Source: Promethearchaeota archaeon
GTDB taxonomy: Archaea > Asgardarchaeota > Lokiarchaeia > Sigyniarchaeales > SOKP01
NCBI GenBank assembly: GCA_048940925.1
Contig: JBHLOC010000041.1
Span: forward strand, 23,965-42,558
Direction: 5' to 3'
DNA length: 18,594 bases
Below the pieces are notes generated by a model. The model saw only the letters and a list, made by a program, of their open reading frames with translations, ran no database searches and was not told the DNA's origin. The stretch's first letter is position 1; every line of letters begins with the position of its first letter. Made by a program: the position numbers and the translations under genes. Positions 1 to 14,711 of this stretch are shown piece by piece.

Positions 1-990
1 GACAGATTCATACTCTGGACCATCAACTTCAATTTCCTTACCGTCTACTTCAATAATCGTAGCTTTTCCACATTGAATCGTGCATCCTGCACATCCGTAG
101 GTAAACATTGGATATTCTTCTTTTAATGTTTTGCTTGTTAATTTTTCAGCGAAAAATTCTGCTTCAGTAAAATAATATCCTGGGGCATCGCCATTAGCCA
201 TTCCAAGATCCAGATAAAAATTCGTACCATATAAGTTAAATAGCATGGTACCAACAGATGCCATAGGATTTTCCTCTCTTGCAGCTTCTTCTTGTTTTCG
301 TAATTCCTTACCGATTTTATTATCAGAAATTTTAATTCTTTTTGTTCCATGAATCGCAACAGCTTTTAGTTTTTTAGATCCCATAAGTGCTCCTAATCCA
401 CATCTCCCAATTGCTCTTCCCTCATCATTAATAATAGCTCCATATTTTACCAGATTTTCCCCTCCCTGACCAATACATGCCACTCTAAGATTTGGTTGAT
501 TTATCTCATTTTTTATTAATTTTTGAGACTCATAACAATCTTTTCCCCATATATTGGTGGCATCTTTAAATTCAATAGTTCCATTATTTATATACAAATA
601 AATCGGTTCGCTTGATTTACCATTAAAAACTAGTGCATCATAACCACTGTTCCGTAAAGATAAACAAAAATAACCCCCAGACGTTCCCTCACCCCATATT
701 CCGGTCAGCGGAGATATTCCTGCAACTGAGTATCTTCCTGAAGATGGTCTAATTGTTCCAGTTATAGGCCCCGTCGCAAAAATCAATGGATTGATTTCAG
801 CAAAAGGATTAGTTTTTAACAAGTTAAAATCCTTTTCTGAAAGTAAATCATAAATAATTTTTGCGCTTAATCCAGTTCCTCCAAGAAATTCTTTTGCTAC
901 TTTAGGATCTAAATCTTTAATATCAATACTCTTATCGCTTAAATTAATAAATGCAATTTTTCCATTATAACCATATAATTTATTTGTCAT
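1..990 (-). CDS. aor: Tungsten-containing aldehyde:ferredoxin oxidoreductase (AOR/WOR family), N-terminal 330 codons; runs off the window edge and is missing from the ORF track
   Basis: Manual translation from ATG 988-990: MTNKLYGYNGKIAFINLS...FLGGTGLSAKI...LIFATGPITGT...SPLTGIWGEGTSGG...CIGQGGENLV...GRCGLGALMGSKKLKAV...CAGCTIQCGK...DGPEYESV, all AFOR_N/AOR hallmarks. GGAGAGG RBS just upstream. Confidence 0.95.
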   Translation of the reverse strand, partial: MTNKLYGYNGKIAFINLSDKSIDIKDLDPKVAKEFLGGTGLSAKIIYDLLSEKDFNLLKTNPFAEINPLIFATGPITGTIRPSSGRYSVAGISPLTGIWGEGTSGGYFCLSLRNSGYDALVFNGKSSEPIYLYINNGTIEFKDATNIWGKDCYESQKLIKNEINQPNLRVACIGQGGENLVKYGAIINDEGRAIGRCGLGALMGSKKLKAVAIHGTKRIKISDNKIGKELRKQEEAAREENPMASVGTMLFNLYGTNFYLDLGMANGDAPGYYFTEAEFFAEKLTSKTLKEEYPMFTYGCAGCTIQCGKATIIEVDGKEIEVDGPEYESV

Positions 991-4255: not shown

Positions 4256-4813
4256 TTGGCGAAAAAAATGGAGGAGGCATTAAAAGAAAAATTTACATTC
4301 AAGGTAACCGTCATTGGAGACGGTTTCGTCGGTAAAACCTCGCTAATTAACAAGTTCACCCAAGGGGGTTTTCAAGAAGATTATATCCAGACTATCGGTG
4401 CTCAATGGTCTAAATATGAAGAAAATCTCGAAGGAGATTTATGCAAATTGTTTTTCTGGGATATCGCAGGTCAAGATGCTTTCCATTTCTTGCGACCTGT
4501 TTTTTACAAATCAAGTTTAGCAGCCATTATTGTGTTTTCTATTGAAGATAATGATTTTGGTCAAGAAAGTTTTAAACATATATCGAATTGGCATGATGAA
4601 ATTAAAAAATTCTGTGGAGATATACCAGTAGTACTTTTTGGCAATAAAGTTGATTTAGTTGATGAGGAAAAGATAGATGAGGAGAAGATTCTAAAATTAG
4701 TTAACAAGAGGAACTTTATAGGGTTTTATCGAACGTCAGCAAAAACAGGACATAATGTTGAAAGCGCATTCAAAGCAATAATAAAAGAATTGCATGATAG
4801 ATATAAATCTTAA
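4256..4813 (+). CDS. Rab/Ras-superfamily small GTPase (Asgard-type eukaryotic signature protein)
   Basis: G1 GDGFVGKT, G2 YIQTIG, G3 WDIAGQ, G4 GNKVD, G5 TSAK; no C-terminal Cys prenylation motif. Confidence 0.95.
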   Translation: MAKKMEEALKEKFTFKVTVIGDGFVGKTSLINKFTQGGFQEDYIQTIGAQWSKYEENLEGDLCKLFFWDIAGQDAFHFLRPVFYKSSLAAIIVFSIEDNDFGQESFKHISNWHDEIKKFCGDIPVVLFGNKVDLVDEEKIDEEKILKLVNKRNFIGFYRTSAKTGHNVESAFKAIIKELHDRYKS

Positions 4814-9182: not shown

Positions 9183-9805
9183 TTATTCACTTTCATATTC
9201 TTTAAGTATATCGCCAAAAAGACGTTTTACAGCATCAATACGAGTCTCTTCTCCAATTTGTTCAACGTTTTTCAAGCTTATGGCTTCTTTCGGGCAAACT
9301 AAGATACATTGGGGCTCTTTGATACCAGTTTCTTCATCAATAAATTCATCTTTCATATTTTCACAGAGATCACATACCAACGCTTTTTGGGAATCTAAAT
9401 GCAAGCTAATTACGCCAAAATCGCAGGCTCTCTTGCTAATGTATGCGATTTGCTAATGCATTTTATGCAGAACCCGCAACCGTTACACTTATCATCATCC
9501 ACGATAATTGATCCTGTTTCTGGGTCTTGTTCTAATGCTTTTTCAGGACAACTACGAATACATGGTGCATCTTCACATTTCTGACAAGCCAGAGCTATAT
9601 TAAACACTGGTTCAATTCGTATACGATGAATCCTTGCATTAATAGGGTTAAATTCACCATCATGTACAAAAGAGCATACGGATTCACATGTCTTACGCTT
9701 TTTGGGAAATCCAAATAGAGTTTCGCACCCCGTACACAGATTTGGATCAACAATAATGAATTGGTGGACTTTGCCACCTCGCTTTTTAGTTCCTATTTTT
9801 GACAT
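9183..9805 (-). CDS. 4x[4Fe-4S] electron-transfer subunit (DmsB/CooF/AorA-like) of the adjacent AOR; three exons 9805-9722, 9691-9464 and 9431-9183, giving 186 aa after splicing
   Basis: Joined product: MSKIGTKKRGGKVHQFIIVDPNLCTGCE|TCESVCSFVH...CQKCEDAPCIRSCP...CNGCGFCI|RACDFGVISLHLDSQKALVCDLC...PQCILVCPKEAI...YESE, with all 16 canonical Cys in four motifs. Merges track ORFs 9410-9805 and 9183-9404. GAGGTG RBS upstream of ATG 9805. Confidence 0.9.
9432..9463 (-). other. Candidate BHB-like intron 2, 32 nt, frameshifting
   Basis: mRNA: UUGCGGGUUC-UGCA-UA^A-AAUG...CAUU-AGCA-AG^A-GAGCCUGCGA. It has a 10-bp exon-exon stem (with G-U pairs), a central helix with 3 of 4 pairs, two 3-nt bulges and an intron stem AAUG/CAUU. 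Removal restores CNGCGFCIRACDFG and the frame. Confidence 0.8.
9692..9721 (-). other. Candidate BHB (tRNA-type) intron 1, 30 nt, in frame
   Basis: mRNA: G-UGCG-AA^A-CUCUAUUUGGAUUUCCCAAAAAG-CGUA-AG^A-C. It has a 4-bp central helix UGCG/CGUA, two 3-nt purine bulges and an intron hairpin UUUGG/CCAAA. Removal converts CTGCETLFGFPKKRKTCESVC to CTGCETCESVC. Confidence 0.75.
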
Positions 9806-9821
9806 TTTTTCACACCTCTAT

Positions 9822-11750
9822 TTATTTCTTCTTACCTCCTGCTGGTTTTAAGTTTCCAATTACAAAATCCATTCCAAGTTTCTTTAATGTTGCATCTGTT
9901 GGGATCCCTGTTTCTTTATCCCATCCTCTTGCTTCATAATATCCACTTAACAACTTCTGAAAACCATCTTCCTTTAACATTACTCCCTTTGCAGGACCTT
10001 TTGTATGTGCCGTAGTAAAAAATCTTTCAGGTGGATGATCATCAGCTCTCGTCCATCCTTCTCTGATATTGAAACATTTTGATAAAGTAACAATAGCGGC
10101 TCCTCGTAAAAGTATAGATTCTTCCGTATGCGGAATTCCAGTAACCAGTTCAAAAACTTTTGCCAATTCAGCATCGTTTTCATAAATACCTCGAGTAAAT
10201 TTACAGATAACATACGAATCTATAAGGGCATAGGGATCTTCAAGTGCGATAATTGCTTTTCCACGTTCTAATGGCTTATCATAACCAAATCTGTCAAAAT
10301 TTCCCTTAGCATCGAGCCCATATGAACCATTTCGTAAGTGACAAGCGCCTCTAATAGATACGCTTTCTCCTACTGCAAAGGTGCTCATTCCATGTAAATC
10401 AAATGCAGGCATTTCCAAGCCTTTAATGTGCATTGCATACTTACTTGCTCCTTTTCTTCCCATTTCTTCTAATTTTTCACCGGCAACTTTAGTTCCATGA
10501 CCAAATATTTCACCCGCAAAACCTTTCTCAAGAATCATTTCTTCTGTAAAACGTGCTAAATTTTTAGTGGAACCAAATGGGAGTTCATAACCAAGATCAT
10601 CTTTGGTTATCAGTCCGTCAGTAAACAAATCACATGCCATTGCAGCTGTAACTCCTCCGCTAATGGCATCAATTCCTAAGTCATCACATAAATGAATACA
10701 TTTAAATACAGTTGGCCAATCAGCATTACCACACCCTGTTCCAAATCCATATAATAATTCAATATCAACACTAGCTATGAGATTTGGCCAATCAGGATGC
10801 GTTTTAGGAATCCGAGCTAAATGATCACACCCTATAGAACATTGGGAACATGCAACTTTTTTAACAACCCAATCTTGGTTAAGGGTATCTCCTGTAAATT
10901 CTCCATTGGTGATTTTATCCCATGTACCTTCGCGATGATTAAAAGTAGGCATCATTCCAAGTTTATTATAACTAGTGAGCCCCGCAGGGGTTCCTAAATC
11001 ACGATATTTTGCTGTTGCAGGGCCATTAGCAACCTTTATTAATTTTTTAGCTAATTTATAGAATTCTTTTGGAGATGCCACCTTAATTCCTTTCGTTCCC
11101 CTAAAGCATATTGCCTTTAGATTTTTAGAGCCCATAACAGCACCCATACCAGTCCTTCCTGCTTGCCTATTTCTGTCGTTAGTAATACACGCCATATGAC
11201 TCATTCGTTCTCCTGCAGGTCCAATCGACAAAACAGCTAAACGTTGATCTTGGAAATCTTCTCTTATAATTTCTTCAGTTTCAAAAGTACCCTTACCCCA
11301 CACAGTTTTTTCACATGGAACTAAATAATAATCATCGTCATCAACAACCATGTAAACAGGTTCAGGTGATTTTTCTTTAAATACTAACATATTTACACCT
11401 GCACGACGAGCTTGGGCACCAACTGAACCAGAAGAAATTGCCATACCAAACATTCCAGTCAATGGAGATTTAGCAAAGACTCCGTATTTTGATGATGTTG
11501 GTAAGATTGTACCTGGAAAAGGACCTTGAGCATATACAAAAATATTTTCTGGACCTAGAGGATCAACACCTGGTTTTAATTCATCCCAAAGTACTTTTGC
11601 ACCAAATCCATACCCCCCAATCCAATCGCGGCAGAATTCATTGGACAATGTTGATTTTTCAATTTTCCCGTTTGCTAAATCGATATCCAGTCTTACTTGA
11701 CTAAAACCTTTTATTTCATCAGGAACAGGTATTTCTTTCGCTTTACTCAT
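9822..11750 (-). CDS. aor: Tungsten-containing aldehyde oxidoreductase (AOR/WOR family), catalytic subunit
   Basis: WIGGYGFG, KSPLTG, IGPAGE, GRTGMGAVMGSKNLKA, the CSQCSIGC...RGACH [4Fe-4S] ligands, DDLGIDAIS pterin-binding motif and YYEARGWD..TGIP C-terminus. Confidence 0.96.
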   Translation of the reverse strand: MSKAKEIPVPDEIKGFSQVRLDIDLANGKIEKSTLSNEFCRDWIGGYGFGAKVLWDELKPGVDPLGPENIFVYAQGPFPGTILPTSSKYGVFAKSPLTGMFGMAISSGSVGAQARRAGVNMLVFKEKSPEPVYMVVDDDDYYLVPCEKTVWGKGTFETEEIIREDFQDQRLAVLSIGPAGERMSHMACITNDRNRQAGRTGMGAVMGSKNLKAICFRGTKGIKVASPKEFYKLAKKLIKVANGPATAKYRDLGTPAGLTSYNKLGMMPTFNHREGTWDKITNGEFTGDTLNQDWVVKKVACSQCSIGCDHLARIPKTHPDWPNLIASVDIELLYGFGTGCGNADWPTVFKCIHLCDDLGIDAISGGVTAAMACDLFTDGLITKDDLGYELPFGSTKNLARFTEEMILEKGFAGEIFGHGTKVAGEKLEEMGRKGASKYAMHIKGLEMPAFDLHGMSTFAVGESVSIRGACHLRNGSYGLDAKGNFDRFGYDKPLERGKAIIALEDPYALIDSYVICKFTRGIYENDAELAKVFELVTGIPHTEESILLRGAAIVTLSKCFNIREGWTRADDHPPERFFTTAHTKGPAKGVMLKEDGFQKLLSGYYEARGWDKETGIPTDATLKKLGMDFVIGNLKPAGGKKK

Positions 11751-11948: not shown

Positions 11949-14711
11949 TTATGTTAAAAAGAGAAGCTTTCCAATAAAGCTAACAAGATCAATTATTGTT
12001 ATTTTATCCTTTAGCTCTTTATGTTCATTTAGATAGCAATTTAGATGAGCGATACACTTAGGGCATGCAGTAATTAAATATTCTGCCCCTGTGTCAATAG
12101 CTTGAGTAATTTTCTTTTCCTGTAAGAATTTTGAATCTTCACTGCAAGAAATATATGCTGAAACTCCACAACAATCTGCATCTTGTCTATTATCTTCCAT
12201 TTCAATTAATTCCACAGATGGTATTAATTTTAAAACCTCACGAGGAGCATCGAAAACATTGCTCATTCTTCCAAGTCTACAAGGATCATGATAAGTGACT
12301 TTAATTTTATCAAAACTGGGAAATGTTAATCCTTCAAATAGATTCTCTTTTAATATATATTCAGTAATGTGATATATTTTAAAATCAAACTCATTAGTAT
12401 CTTTAAAAAGTTTCTTATATTCATATTTCCAAGTATAATATCCCTCAGCACAGCTAAATACAATCGTATTGACTCCTGCTTCTTTAAAAAGATTAACATT
12501 ATATTTTGCTAGTTTCTCGAAATTTTCGGTGTCTCCTTGCCATAAAAGATCATGCCCACAACATTTTTCTTCACCTAAAACTACTGGGGTAATGTCACTT
12601 TGGTTCAATAATGCTATTACGCTTTTTGGTATCTCTAAATAATCTAAGGCATTAATCGAACTAAAATTTGGTTGTTCTCCATAATGACAAGTCATAATCC
12701 CTGAAGAATCAAGAGAATTATTGTAATCATCAAGAATTTGATCATAACTACAGCAGCAATTACAGTTCATGCATCTACTTGCTTCTGCGATTGCCTGCTC
12801 CTCTGTAAATCCAAGTTCTATTTCTTTAAAATTAGTAAGTCGTTCTTCGCTTGATACAAGATTGATTTTTTGTTGCAGTTCTTCATCAATCTGTTTTTTT
12901 GGAATAGGCGAACGCTTTAAATTTTCTCGTTTGATCCTACCTTTTCTTAAATCACGTCCTCTGAGATACCGATCAATTGATTCTGCAACCTCTTGGCCAT
13001 GTGCTATTGCAGTTATAGCAACCATTTTAGGATTTGGAACAATGTCTCCTCCCGCAAAAACACCAGGAATGCTTGTTTCAAAAGTGATGTCATCTATTAA
13101 GATCTTACCTCTTTCATGTTGGAGTTGATCTCCAGTAGCTGCTAAAATTGGCTCCAAATCAAGTCCTTGACCGATTGCAATAACAATTATATCAGATGTA
13201 ATTTTAAATTCTGAACCCTCCACTTTAATTAATGGTTTTCTCCCAGTATTAGGATCTGGTTCACCCCATTCAATTTTATAACAATTCAACGCTAATTTAT
13301 TTCCTGATTCTTTTGTTATCTTTGATGTTGAGGTTTTAAAATGATACTCTATTAACTCCCTCTCAGCATCATGGATATCTCTAAGTACAAGTTGAAGATC
13401 CTCTTCAGTTAATATATCTACTAAATCAACTTTCTTAGCTCCTAATCTCAGAGCAGTTTCAGCAACATCTACTGCCACAGCACCTCCACCTATGATTCCA
13501 AAAGTTTTTCCTTTATATTCATCTTTATTCTGAGGGAATTTATACTTTCGCTCAAGAAGGAAATCAATTGCAACCTGAACATTCGGTAAGTCTTCTCCCT
13601 CAAGGTGTAAAGTTTTAGGAACGTATAAACCTGTAGCTATAAATGTAGCTTTAAAACCTTCATTTTTAAGGTCTTCAAGAGTTAAACCTTGACCAAAAGG
13701 TTTATTTAATAAGATATCCACACCCATATTTTTTATAAATTCGATATCATGATCAAGGGCTTTATCAGATAATCGATATTGGGGTACACCATACCGCACC
13801 ATTCCTCCAATCTTATCTCCTTTCTCAAAAATCGTAGGTTTATATCCCTTTCTTGCGAGGAGATAGGCTGCTGATAACCCTGCTGGTCCAGCTCCTATGA
13901 TTGCCACTTTTTCTTTATCTTGTTTTACGGGCTTAATTTTGCTTAAATCAGGATTATTCATCTCCCAATCTGAAATAAAGCGCTTTAAAACTCTAATAGC
14001 AAGGGGATCATCAATATATTGACGATTGCAATTCAACGCACAGTATTCTGTACATATTCTCCCACATAAGAAAGGTAAAGGGTTGGCTTCCCTTATAAGA
14101 TCAATAGCTTCTTGAAACTTCCCTTCTGCTATTAGCGAGACATAACCTTGGACATCTACTCCAGCAGGGCAGGCACATGAACATGGAGCAATACCTGTCA
14201 TATATGGAGTACACCCCATAAAATAACCGATTTCTCCCTTATTAGCAACCTTTAAATCAGTACCTTCTAAAAAACCAAGCTTATTTGTAATTTTTATTTT
14301 TCCATTAGCCATTAAATAAGGTAAGCTAGAATATTCCCTATTATGATGACATATAAGCAATTCATCTTGCAATGGCTTATAATCAGAAGAGAGAGATCGG
14401 AGATCTTTTATAATTTGAGTAAAATTAACCCCGATATCTTCTTTAGTCATAGGACAATACTCTGAACAGAGCCCGCATGTTAAACATTTCCATATATTAT
14501 TATTCTTTAATGCTTCTTCAGGTGATAAAAATGTTAAATCTACAATTAAACTACGTGGATAAAATAGATCAAGAAATGCAGTAGGACACACCATATTGCA
14601 ACGATTACAATTATAACAATAATTAGCTGCAGCATTAACTTTCTTTATAACTTCTATTGATTCTTTACTCTCAAGTTTTTTAATTGGCTCTTTATCTTTA
14701 GAAACAGTCAT
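11949..14711 (-). CDS. HdrD-like FeS/CCG-domain oxidoreductase with an inserted GltD/NfnB/SudA-type FAD/NAD(P) module
   Basis: N-terminal CYNCNRCNMVCP and CLTCGLCSEYCP. The first CCG domain is split (GYFMGC ... EKCCG ... FSCAEG) and the second is intact (YHDPCRLGR...DCCG...TACPKC). The insert has APCSCACP, CGRICTEYC, GAGPAG, GGGAVAVDVA, FAGGD and EASRCMNC. Confidence 0.9.
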   Translation of the reverse strand: MTVSKDKEPIKKLESKESIEVIKKVNAAANYCYNCNRCNMVCPTAFLDLFYPRSLIVDLTFLSPEEALKNNNIWKCLTCGLCSEYCPMTKEDIGVNFTQIIKDLRSLSSDYKPLQDELLICHHNREYSSLPYLMANGKIKITNKLGFLEGTDLKVANKGEIGYFMGCTPYMTGIAPCSCACPAGVDVQGYVSLIAEGKFQEAIDLIREANPLPFLCGRICTEYCALNCNRQYIDDPLAIRVLKRFISDWEMNNPDLSKIKPVKQDKEKVAIIGAGPAGLSAAYLLARKGYKPTIFEKGDKIGGMVRYGVPQYRLSDKALDHDIEFIKNMGVDILLNKPFGQGLTLEDLKNEGFKATFIATGLYVPKTLHLEGEDLPNVQVAIDFLLERKYKFPQNKDEYKGKTFGIIGGGAVAVDVAETALRLGAKKVDLVDILTEEDLQLVLRDIHDAERELIEYHFKTSTSKITKESGNKLALNCYKIEWGEPDPNTGRKPLIKVEGSEFKITSDIIVIAIGQGLDLEPILAATGDQLQHERGKILIDDITFETSIPGVFAGGDIVPNPKMVAITAIAHGQEVAESIDRYLRGRDLRKGRIKRENLKRSPIPKKQIDEELQQKINLVSSEERLTNFKEIELGFTEEQAIAEASRCMNCNCCCSYDQILDDYNNSLDSSGIMTCHYGEQPNFSSINALDYLEIPKSVIALLNQSDITPVVLGEEKCCGHDLLWQGDTENFEKLAKYNVNLFKEAGVNTIVFSCAEGYYTWKYEYKKLFKDTNEFDFKIYHITEYILKENLFEGLTFPSFDKIKVTYHDPCRLGRMSNVFDAPREVLKLIPSVELIEMEDNRQDADCCGVSAYISCSEDSKFLQEKKITQAIDTGAEYLITACPKCIAHLNCYLNEHKELKDKITIIDLVSFIGKLLFLT

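What the first reader, a model, noticed from the sequence alone, without database searches (positions are those of the whole stretch)
9432..9463. Intron 2: frameshifting, relaxed BHB with a strong exon-exon stem, so splicing is required for full-length protein
Seen: 32 nt is not a multiple of 3, so unspliced mRNA stops at 9410-9412 and loses the last ligand of the third Cys motif and the whole fourth motif. The flanking exons pair over 10 bp (UUGCGGGUUC/GAGCCUGCGA). The central helix UGCA/AGCA has one A-A mismatch, making it bulge-helix-loop-like. Established: relaxed BHL motifs are cut only by broad-specificity EndA types (for example (alpha-beta)2 and epsilon2), not by strict alpha4 enzymes. 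Inference: the host needs a relaxed-specificity endonuclease, and splicing could gate production of the AOR electron-transfer subunit.
Basis: partly seen in the sequence, partly recalled or inferred. Interest (0 to 1): 0.8.

Follow-up and report, generated by a model that had tools for sequence, protein, structure and literature searches.

The report
tRNA-type mini-intron in Asgard iron-sulfur gene
A healthy iron-sulfur protein gene of a Loki-type Asgard archaeon is broken by a 32-base hairpin shaped like a tRNA intron, so its mRNA almost certainly has to be cut and rejoined by the tRNA-splicing enzymes, which the papers I could search show for the coding part of only one other archaeal gene (cbf5).

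Summary
Confirmed. The 32-nt insert (9432-9463, minus strand) splits the third CxxCxxCxxxC motif of the 4x[4Fe-4S] partner gene of aor in a Promethearchaeota (Loki) genome. It is missing from 36 of 40 complete same-genus orthologues. Removing it and a 30-nt in-frame intron restores all 16 invariant cysteines. Downstream codons stay under purifying selection between carriers (dN/dS 0.03-0.05 at dS about 1). The same intron sits in three sister lineages. A second 32-nt type lies one base upstream in eight scattered lineages and shows compensatory pairs. The host has an (alpha-beta)2 EndA with the K-P-R specificity loop, RtcB, non-canonical tRNA introns and at least nine more 30-31-nt motif-bearing coding inserts.

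Regulation of the AOR subunit is unsupported: most relatives lack the intron, and housekeeping genes carry the same class.

Verdict: real EndA/RtcB-type mRNA intron (about 0.9), probably tolerated rather than regulatory. The scan has noted this class before on other DNA, including this gene in other genomes.

The parts
9432..9463 (-). Intron 2 (type A), 32 nt, phase 0 between the Ile104 and Arg105 codons; frameshifting; relaxed BHB
   Evidence: absent in 36 of 40 complete genus orthologues; homologous insert in G018, L289-L292, L296-L298
9470..9479 (-). 5' arm of the exon-exon helix (10 bp, three G-U)
   Evidence: no synonymous change in 11 stem codons between G000 and G018, against 47 of 139 elsewhere
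9466..9469 (-). 5' strand of the central helix (UGCA; the Cys103 codon gives three bases); 5' bulge 9465-9463, predicted cut between 9464 and 9463
   Evidence: Sequence; (three invariant pairs, fourth unpaired in all type A carriers: A-A or G-A)
9434..9437 (-). 3' strand of the central helix (AGCA); 3' bulge 9433-9431, predicted cut between 9432 and 9431
   Evidence: Sequence
9421..9430 (-). 3' arm of the exon-exon helix (Arg-Ala-Cys-Asp codons)
9410..9412 (-). Stop codon reached if intron 2 is not removed
9692..9721 (-). Intron 1, 30 nt, in frame, inside the first Cys motif; 4/4 central pairs, weak exon helix
   Evidence: inserts at the same site in G063, L175, L273 (34 nt), L293, L295, L299, L305; central helix paired in 96% of cells
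9722..9805 (-). Exon 1 of the 4x[4Fe-4S] subunit gene
9464..9691 (-). Exon 2
9183..9431 (-). Exon 3 (82 codons plus stop; last Cys of motif 3 and all of motif 4)
   Evidence: dN/dS 0.026-0.046 between type A carriers
9822..11750 (-). aor, AOR-family aldehyde:ferredoxin oxidoreductase, 16 nt upstream on the same strand; no insert
   Evidence: Pfam AFOR_N/AFOR_C; PDB 8C0Z_A, 1AOR, 9MQX_D at E below 1e-89
11949..14711 (-). HdrD-like (CCG) / GltD-like flavoprotein fusion upstream of aor, co-oriented

Best explanation
Intron 2 is a real archaeal endonuclease-type (BHB family) mRNA intron. In the aor-FeS transcript the flanking exons zip into a 10-12 bp helix. This holds the 3' splice site in a 3-nt bulge and the 5' site in a bulge widened by one purine-purine mismatch. 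The (alpha-beta)2 EndA with its K-P-R loop cuts after the second base of each bulge, and RtcB joins the exons. With intron 1 also removed, the mRNA encodes the 186-aa four-cluster electron-transfer partner of AOR. The intron is most likely a tolerated, near-neutral insertion, one of an estimated few dozen in this genome. It persists because only exact removal of the DNA is viable inside a Cys motif, and its stems are kept by selection for splicing. Shown: insert, frame restoration, motif, selection on exon 3 and on the stems, presence of the enzyme genes. Inferred: actual cleavage and ligation, cut positions, constitutive rather than regulated splicing, partnership with AOR.
For: Exact 32-nt surplus over about 100 uninterrupted family orthologues. 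Independent assemblies carry the same intron (G018, L289-L298), so it is not an assembly error. Exon 3 dN/dS 0.026-0.046 at dS about 1, equal to exons 1-2. The nine codons between the splice site and the next possible start are kept as R-A-C-D-F-G-V-x-x in all 12 carriers, and only one type A carrier has a start codon there. All changes among type A introns are structure-neutral: one bulge base, one mismatch repaired to U-A, one U-A to U-G, one exon C-G to U-G. Type B introns one base upstream: 92.8% of cells paired and 7 double-sided changes, 0 of 500 shuffles as high, against 34-58% paired when slid. EndA alpha with catalytic Tyr/His/Lys and K-P-R aligned to A. pernix 3P1Z, a non-catalytic beta subunit, and RtcB (PMC12397907). 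tRNA introns of 28-31 nt at about positions 20, 26, 28, 31, 44 (heuristic). Census against 1.2 Mb of a relative: 9 well-anchored inserts of 30-31 nt pass the motif test, two with the same purine-purine mismatch; 3 of 54 poorly anchored indels pass.
Against: The motif is a minor predicted conformer in this genome. Type A alone shows no double-sided compensatory change (3 distinct sequences). The exon stem is partly pre-formed by the coding sequence. Unpaired positions of the type A intron are more conserved than neutral drift predicts (1 of 11 changed at dS about 1; p 0.002-0.03 depending on the neutral rate assumed), which the 'tolerated only' reading does not fully explain. Related sequences are not independent, so the shuffle counts overstate significance.
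Confidence: 0.75

Rival explanations
1. Real intron that also acts as a regulatory gate. The weak motif makes splicing rate-limiting or condition-dependent, and so tunes the supply of the Fe-S subunit relative to AOR.
For: Frameshifting position makes unspliced mRNA useless; the competing hairpin in this genome puts the cleavable fold 3.4 kcal/mol above the minimum; loop and bulge bases of type A are conserved; a negative-regulator role was proposed for the cbf5 intron (PMC2738675).
Against: 36 of 40 complete genus orthologues lack it. Near-identical sister alleles differ in presence (G022/L305, G014/G016, G032/L299). Six of eight type B carrier lineages have a perfect central helix. The competing hairpin depends on one base that other type A carriers lack. 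Same-class inserts sit in EF-2, a Rab-like GTPase, a mutase and a glycosidase, with no shared regulon.
Confidence: 0.12
2. The insert is not spliced and the gene is decaying or split: a 131-aa fragment plus a re-initiated 73-aa fragment from the TTG at 9404.
For: A TTG lies 6 nt past the stop; gene callers annotate it this way; the genome has several distant Fe-S paralogues.
Against: dN/dS 0.03-0.05 and no other lesion in any of 12 carriers; Cys107 would be in neither fragment, yet its codon is invariant; other type A carriers have CTA in place of the TTG; paralogues are only 27-34% identical; neither decay nor splitting predicts a conserved BHB.
Confidence: 0.04
3. Translational recoding: the ribosome hops or frameshifts over the hairpin, with no RNA cleavage.
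For: A stable exon-exon stem could bring take-off and landing sites together; cbf5 was once confused with frameshifting (PMC2738675).
Against: A simple frameshift would leave 10-11 extra residues inside a CxxCxxCxxxC motif. A hop needs matching take-off and landing codons, which are absent. The 4-bp/3-nt geometry and its covariation match EndA, and the same size class occurs in tRNAs, which are not translated.
Confidence: 0.03
4. Spliced by EndA, but at a shifted register (cuts one base upstream, as in type B, giving Met-Arg; or one to two bases downstream).
For: The predicted minimum-energy fold places the 3' bulge one base upstream; four registers restore the frame; type B uses the -1 register.
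Against: In the -1 register only one of four central pairs forms; the +2 register loses the conserved Arg; the +1 register gives the same mRNA sequence but a poor helix.
Confidence: 0.06

Closest known systems
cbf5 pre-mRNA intron of Crenarchaeota (Watanabe 2002; Yoshinari 2006; Yokobori 2009, PMC2738675)
   Same: Short (cbf5 16-44 nt) BHB-type intron in a coding sequence, often with a relaxed motif, at an essential residue, patchily distributed, in hosts with (alpha-beta)2 EndA.
   Different: Asgard host; energy-metabolism gene; two introns in one 186-codon gene; two unrelated-looking intron types at adjacent positions; one of many in the genome, not a single gene. Splicing was shown for cbf5 and not here.
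Non-canonical tRNA introns of Asgard archaea (PMC11291895; bioRxiv 10.64898/2026.10.13.758758)
   Same: Same motif and size range, repeated gains, same enzyme; this genome's own tRNAs carry 28-31-nt examples.
   Different: Those papers treat tRNA genes only; in the passages searched they report no coding-sequence introns. No copy of this intron was found elsewhere in the genome.
HVO_1309 5' UTR BHB intron of Haloferax volcanii (PMC7714728)
   Same: An mRNA cut by the splicing endonuclease.
   Different: Untranslated region, so no reading frame depends on it; different enzyme type (alpha2, own knowledge).
Fe-S subunits of tungsten aldehyde oxidoreductases (PDB 9MQX_E, 6X6U_B/6X1O_B, 8C0Z_C)
   Same: An intron-free orthologue matches them at E 1e-21 to 1e-25 over the first three Cys groups, and the partner gene matches their catalytic chains.
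   Different: About 35-40% identity by eye from the alignments; no NCBIfam cut-off reached; the complex is inferred from gene order only.
IRE1/RtcB splicing of XBP1/HAC1 mRNA in eukaryotes (own knowledge)
   Same: A short frameshifting mRNA intron removed without a spliceosome; XBP1 is ligated by RtcB.
   Different: Different nuclease and motif (two stem-loops), and regulated by stress; no regulation is shown here. Analogy only.

Membership tests
Archaeal EndA-spliced (BHB-family) intron | Intervening sequence whose exact removal restores the conserved product | tested here: met
Archaeal EndA-spliced (BHB-family) intron | Boundaries fall after the second base of two 3-nt bulges on opposite strands of a central helix | tested here: met
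   the register fixed by the motif is also the one that keeps Ile/Val-Arg
Canonical hBHBh' motif | Four paired bases in the central helix | tested here: not met
   Three pairs plus A-A (G-A in other type A carriers); so a relaxed form
Archaeal EndA-spliced (BHB-family) intron | At least one outer helix (exon side or intron side) | tested here: met
   Exon helix 10 bp, probability above 0.9; intron helix 4 bp by sequence but probability about 0.05 in this genome, 7 bp in G018
Archaeal EndA-spliced (BHB-family) intron | Structure kept across homologues through compensatory changes | tested here: inconclusive
   Type A: only one-sided, pair-keeping changes in 3 sequences. Type B, one base upstream: met, but its homology to type A is not shown
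Archaeal EndA-spliced (BHB-family) intron | Host encodes splicing endonuclease and RtcB ligase | tested here: met
Archaeal EndA-spliced (BHB-family) intron | Spliced RNA or cleavage demonstrated | not testable with these tools
Broad-specificity (alpha-beta)2 EndA | One catalytic subunit (Tyr, His, Lys) and one separate structural paralogue | tested here: met
   L031:1453-2049 aligns to 3P1Z_B with the triad (E 4e-33); L032:1210-1812 has Phe for Tyr and no His
Broad-specificity (alpha-beta)2 EndA | CSL/L1 loop with Lys-Pro-Arg/Lys | tested here: met
   K-P-R aligned to the A. pernix loop; role from PMC12397907 and PMC5829648
Broad-specificity (alpha-beta)2 EndA | Cleaves relaxed motifs outside a tRNA body | not testable with these tools
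   Shown for S. solfataricus and P. aerophilum enzymes (PMC2724299); not assayed for this enzyme
Self-splicing group I/II intron or other known RNA family | Catalytic RNA core or Rfam match | tested here: not met
   32 nt; no Rfam hit in the window
Mobile homing intron | Encodes, or lies beside, a homing endonuclease or reverse transcriptase | tested here: not met
   Too short to code; no such gene among the neighbours scanned; no PF00078 match in the genome

The most novel reading that the evidence does not exclude
Loki-type Asgard archaea splice many ordinary mRNAs with the tRNA machinery, and these mini-introns are still being gained, lost and passed between species at sites where Cys-motif codons already form a hairpin. 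This gene records the process: two introns, two types one base apart, scattered over the genus tree. In the most novel version the conserved, weakly folding type A intron also tunes production of the Fe-S subunit, an archaeal counterpart of regulated non-spliceosomal mRNA splicing. The probability given is for the full version with regulation; widespread splicing with active turnover but no regulation is about 0.7.
Probability: 0.12. Interest if true: 0.9.

Novelty: new variant of a known kind. Interest (0 to 1): 0.7.

Why it matters
Published archaeal coding-sequence splicing rests on one gene, cbf5. If this holds, the closest prokaryotic relatives of eukaryotes splice ordinary metabolic mRNAs, here twice in a 186-codon gene. 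That bears on how common and how tolerable intron gain was before the spliceosome. The site is also a tractable model for intron origin: near-identical alleles with and without the intron, two types one base apart, and a hairpin already present in intron-free relatives. In practice, databases list these genes as 98-132-aa fragments, and the in-frame intron is invisible to gene callers, so Asgard metabolic reconstructions can misread intact genes as broken.

Tried and rejected
An exact pattern search for the intron in metagenome contigs found nothing. The protein search found many unspliced carriers but no product identical to the joined type A form. Assembly artefact rejected: independent assemblies carry the insert with substitutions. 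A copy from a tRNA intron or elsewhere in the genome was not found (best outside match 14 nt). A single origin of all type B alleles as one clade is rejected (AU p 9e-5, at least 7 changes); many gains, one gain with many exact losses, and lateral transfer are not separated. Sliding from type B to type A is not shown: it needs a two-base loss and a two-base gain, and equal length is uninformative because 30-32 nt is the class mode. The first census script missed frameshifting inserts and was replaced. Two tRNA scripts failed, one timed out; the working one allows only one intron per gene, so its calls are heuristic. The metagenome locus search keeps the best 80 hits and so under-samples split genes. 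Promoter/terminator scan: nothing above chance. Paper searches for archaeal mRNA splicing or Promethearchaeum introns found nothing beyond cbf5 and HVO_1309; the library lacks most subscription journals. No structure or complex was predicted, because the joined protein has no reference and the question does not depend on it.

Full report
Setting. The window lies in a 4.8-Mb, 29.6% GC genome. Its closest orthologues come from MAGs titled Promethearchaeota, that is Loki-type Asgard archaea. On the minus strand run an HdrD/GltD-like fusion (11949-14711), aor (9822-11750) and, 16 nt further, a ferredoxin-type gene in two frames, 9805-9410 and 9404-9183. An intron-free orthologue matches the Fe-S subunits of tungsten aldehyde oxidoreductases in the PDB, and aor matches their catalytic chains. 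'Electron-transfer partner of AOR' is therefore a sound inference from homology and gene order, not a tested fact.

Observation. The unspliced frame stops at 9410-9412. Removing 9432-9463 restores C-x2-C-x2-C-x3-C and an open frame to 9183. Removing 9692-9721 too gives 186 residues with 16 cysteines, invariant in 47 orthologues. Unspliced, five cysteines are lost. By the usual ligand pattern of this four-cluster family (own knowledge) that spoils three of the four clusters. The exon arms pair over 10 bases, three of them G-U, with probability above 0.9. The central helix has three pairs and an A-A beside the 5' bulge. Shuffled inserts fit this well in 0.07% of trials, or 0.27% over four registers. 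Two cautions apply. The cleavable fold is 3.4 kcal/mol above the predicted minimum here, with the intron-side helix at about 5%, whereas in G018 that helix is part of the minimum fold. And the exon stem is partly given by the Cys and Ala codons: one of 35 intron-free orthologues has a 9-bp run in this register and five have 8-9 bp one base upstream, although carriers pair best.

Comparison with relatives. Of 40 complete orthologues in the genus, 36 are uninterrupted and 4 are split at this site; no further split gene appeared in about 65 more orthologues from the family. The protein collection gave more carriers. They fall into two types, both 32 nt. Type A, this one, lies between codons 104 and 105 in G000, G018, L289 and L296, which form a clade (100/98). 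All have the purine-A mismatch and the 10-bp exon stem, and every change among them is structure-neutral. Type B lies one base upstream in eight lineages. Six have a perfect central helix and two have a mismatch at the same position beside the 5' bulge. It shows 92.8% pairing and seven double-sided changes, against 34-58% pairing for slid controls. Type B carriers are scattered, often beside a near-identical intron-free allele, and are rejected as one clade (AU p 9e-5, at least 7 changes). Intron 1 is likewise scattered and occurs in six of the twelve intron-2 carriers. Whether this reflects repeated gain at a ready-made hairpin, one old gain with many exact losses, or lateral conversion is open. 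The flanks of G016 match distant type B carriers better than its nearer ones, which hints at some lateral transfer (inference).

Selection. Between type A carriers, exon 3 has dN/dS 0.026-0.046 at dS about 1, the same as exons 1-2; type B pairs give 0.06-0.11. No carrier has a second lesion. The codons between the splice site and the next possible start, including Cys107, are conserved although no unspliced frame reads them, and the TTG at 9404 is CTA in the other type A carriers. The eleven stem codons show no synonymous change between G000 and G018, against 34% elsewhere; none of 585 diverged intron-free pairs shows zero.

Machinery. The genome has two EndA-family genes. One aligns best to the A. 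pernix catalytic subunit, with Tyr, His and Lys and the loop motif K-P-R, the residues tied to relaxed cleavage in PMC12397907. The other lacks Tyr and His. RtcB is intact. [quoted passage not shown] The loop is reported across TACK and Asgard (PMC5829648), so it is a background permission. A heuristic search finds tRNA introns of 28-31 nt near positions 20, 26, 28, 31 and 44, some with three of four central pairs.

Genome context. Aligning about 950 proteins, nearly all from 1.2 Mb of relative G006, to this genome gave well-anchored inserts concentrated at 30-31 nt. Nine pass a motif test: EF-2, a Rab-like GTPase, a small CxxC protein, an amidohydrolase-family protein, a GH38, a nucleotide phosphorylase-family protein, a metallo-beta-lactamase-fold protein, methylmalonyl-CoA mutase and a PAC2 protein. 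Seven have four central pairs and two have the same purine-purine mismatch as intron 2. Only 3 of 54 poorly anchored indels pass. That is about 1% of genes, or a few dozen genome-wide by extrapolation. The reverse comparison found one 28-nt motif-bearing insert in G006 in 831 comparisons, so intron load differs between genomes.

Mechanism and rivals. Best reading: constitutive EndA cleavage and RtcB ligation of a tolerated intron (0.75), with a shifted-register variant at 0.06 and regulation at 0.12; together about 0.9 for splicing. Regulation is weak because most relatives do without the intron, sister alleles differ, the competing hairpin rests on one base private to this genome, and the class hits unrelated genes. 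One loose end favours caution: unpaired bases of the type A intron are more conserved than drift predicts. Decay, a split gene or ribosomal hopping are unlikely (0.07 together).

What is missing. Cleavage, ligation and cut sites are inferred.

Known and new. The papers I could search document one archaeal coding-sequence intron, cbf5, and one 5' UTR case (PMC2738675, PMC7714728). The Asgard intron papers deal with tRNAs. This works like the cbf5 intron and meets every testable feature of the BHB family except the fourth central pair. It differs in host, gene class, number and turnover: a new variant of a known kind. Earlier notes of this scan describe the same class in this and many other genomes, and this gene in others. 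I used them as leads only; my census independently recovered the EF-2 and CxxC-protein inserts.

Noticed in passing
window 9692-9721 (-): Intron 1: in frame, so invisible to gene callers; different sequences at the same site in seven other lineages, one of 34 nt, with a kept central helix and covarying inner stem.
   Followed up: yes
window 9433-9458 (-): Intron 2 holds a 9-nt direct repeat with period 17, and the 4-mer GCAU of the upstream Cys/Ile codons recurs twice inside it; this may record an origin by local duplication.
   Followed up: no
G075, G006, G013, G004, G035, G064 orthologues: Intron-free alleles already form 8-9-bp exon stems in exactly the register a BHB intron would need: either relics of exact loss or ready-made landing sites.
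   Followed up: partly
G000:C62:7990 (-), RNA polymerase subunit A' gene: A well-anchored 65-nt frameshifting insert that fails my simple motif test (three central pairs, no outer helix); perhaps a nested or double intron.
   Followed up: no
G000 C32:27924, C73:29874, C41:53183, C35:37909, C43:76097, C64:13206, C54:3387, C71:54629, C22:37283: Nine more 30-31-nt BHB-type inserts in coding genes; six are in frame. The C54 site has the same upstream hexamer and the same mismatch position as intron 2.
   Followed up: partly
L041 (G006), orthologue of a 165-aa protein on G000:C4: A 28-nt insert with a perfect central helix and 6-bp inner stem in G006, absent from G000.
   Followed up: no
P0001-P0003, P0010, P0015, P0024, P0054, P0080, P0081: Public collections list carrier genes as 98-141-aa truncated or hypothetical proteins; P0024 ends differently and may be another insert type.
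   Followed up: partly
window 70-948 (-) and genome-wide: A second aor-like stretch at the left end of the window; the genome holds at least a dozen AOR-family paralogues at 25-34% identity.
   Followed up: no
window 4256-4813 (+): Rab-like small GTPase by sequence motifs, typical of Asgard archaea; not scanned against a library.
   Followed up: no
G000:C3:50049-50141: tRNA-Sec called by ARAGORN.
   Followed up: no
L310:400-440: An intron-free orthologue breaks into unrelated sequence three codons after this site; an insertion, rearrangement or chimeric contig.
   Followed up: partly
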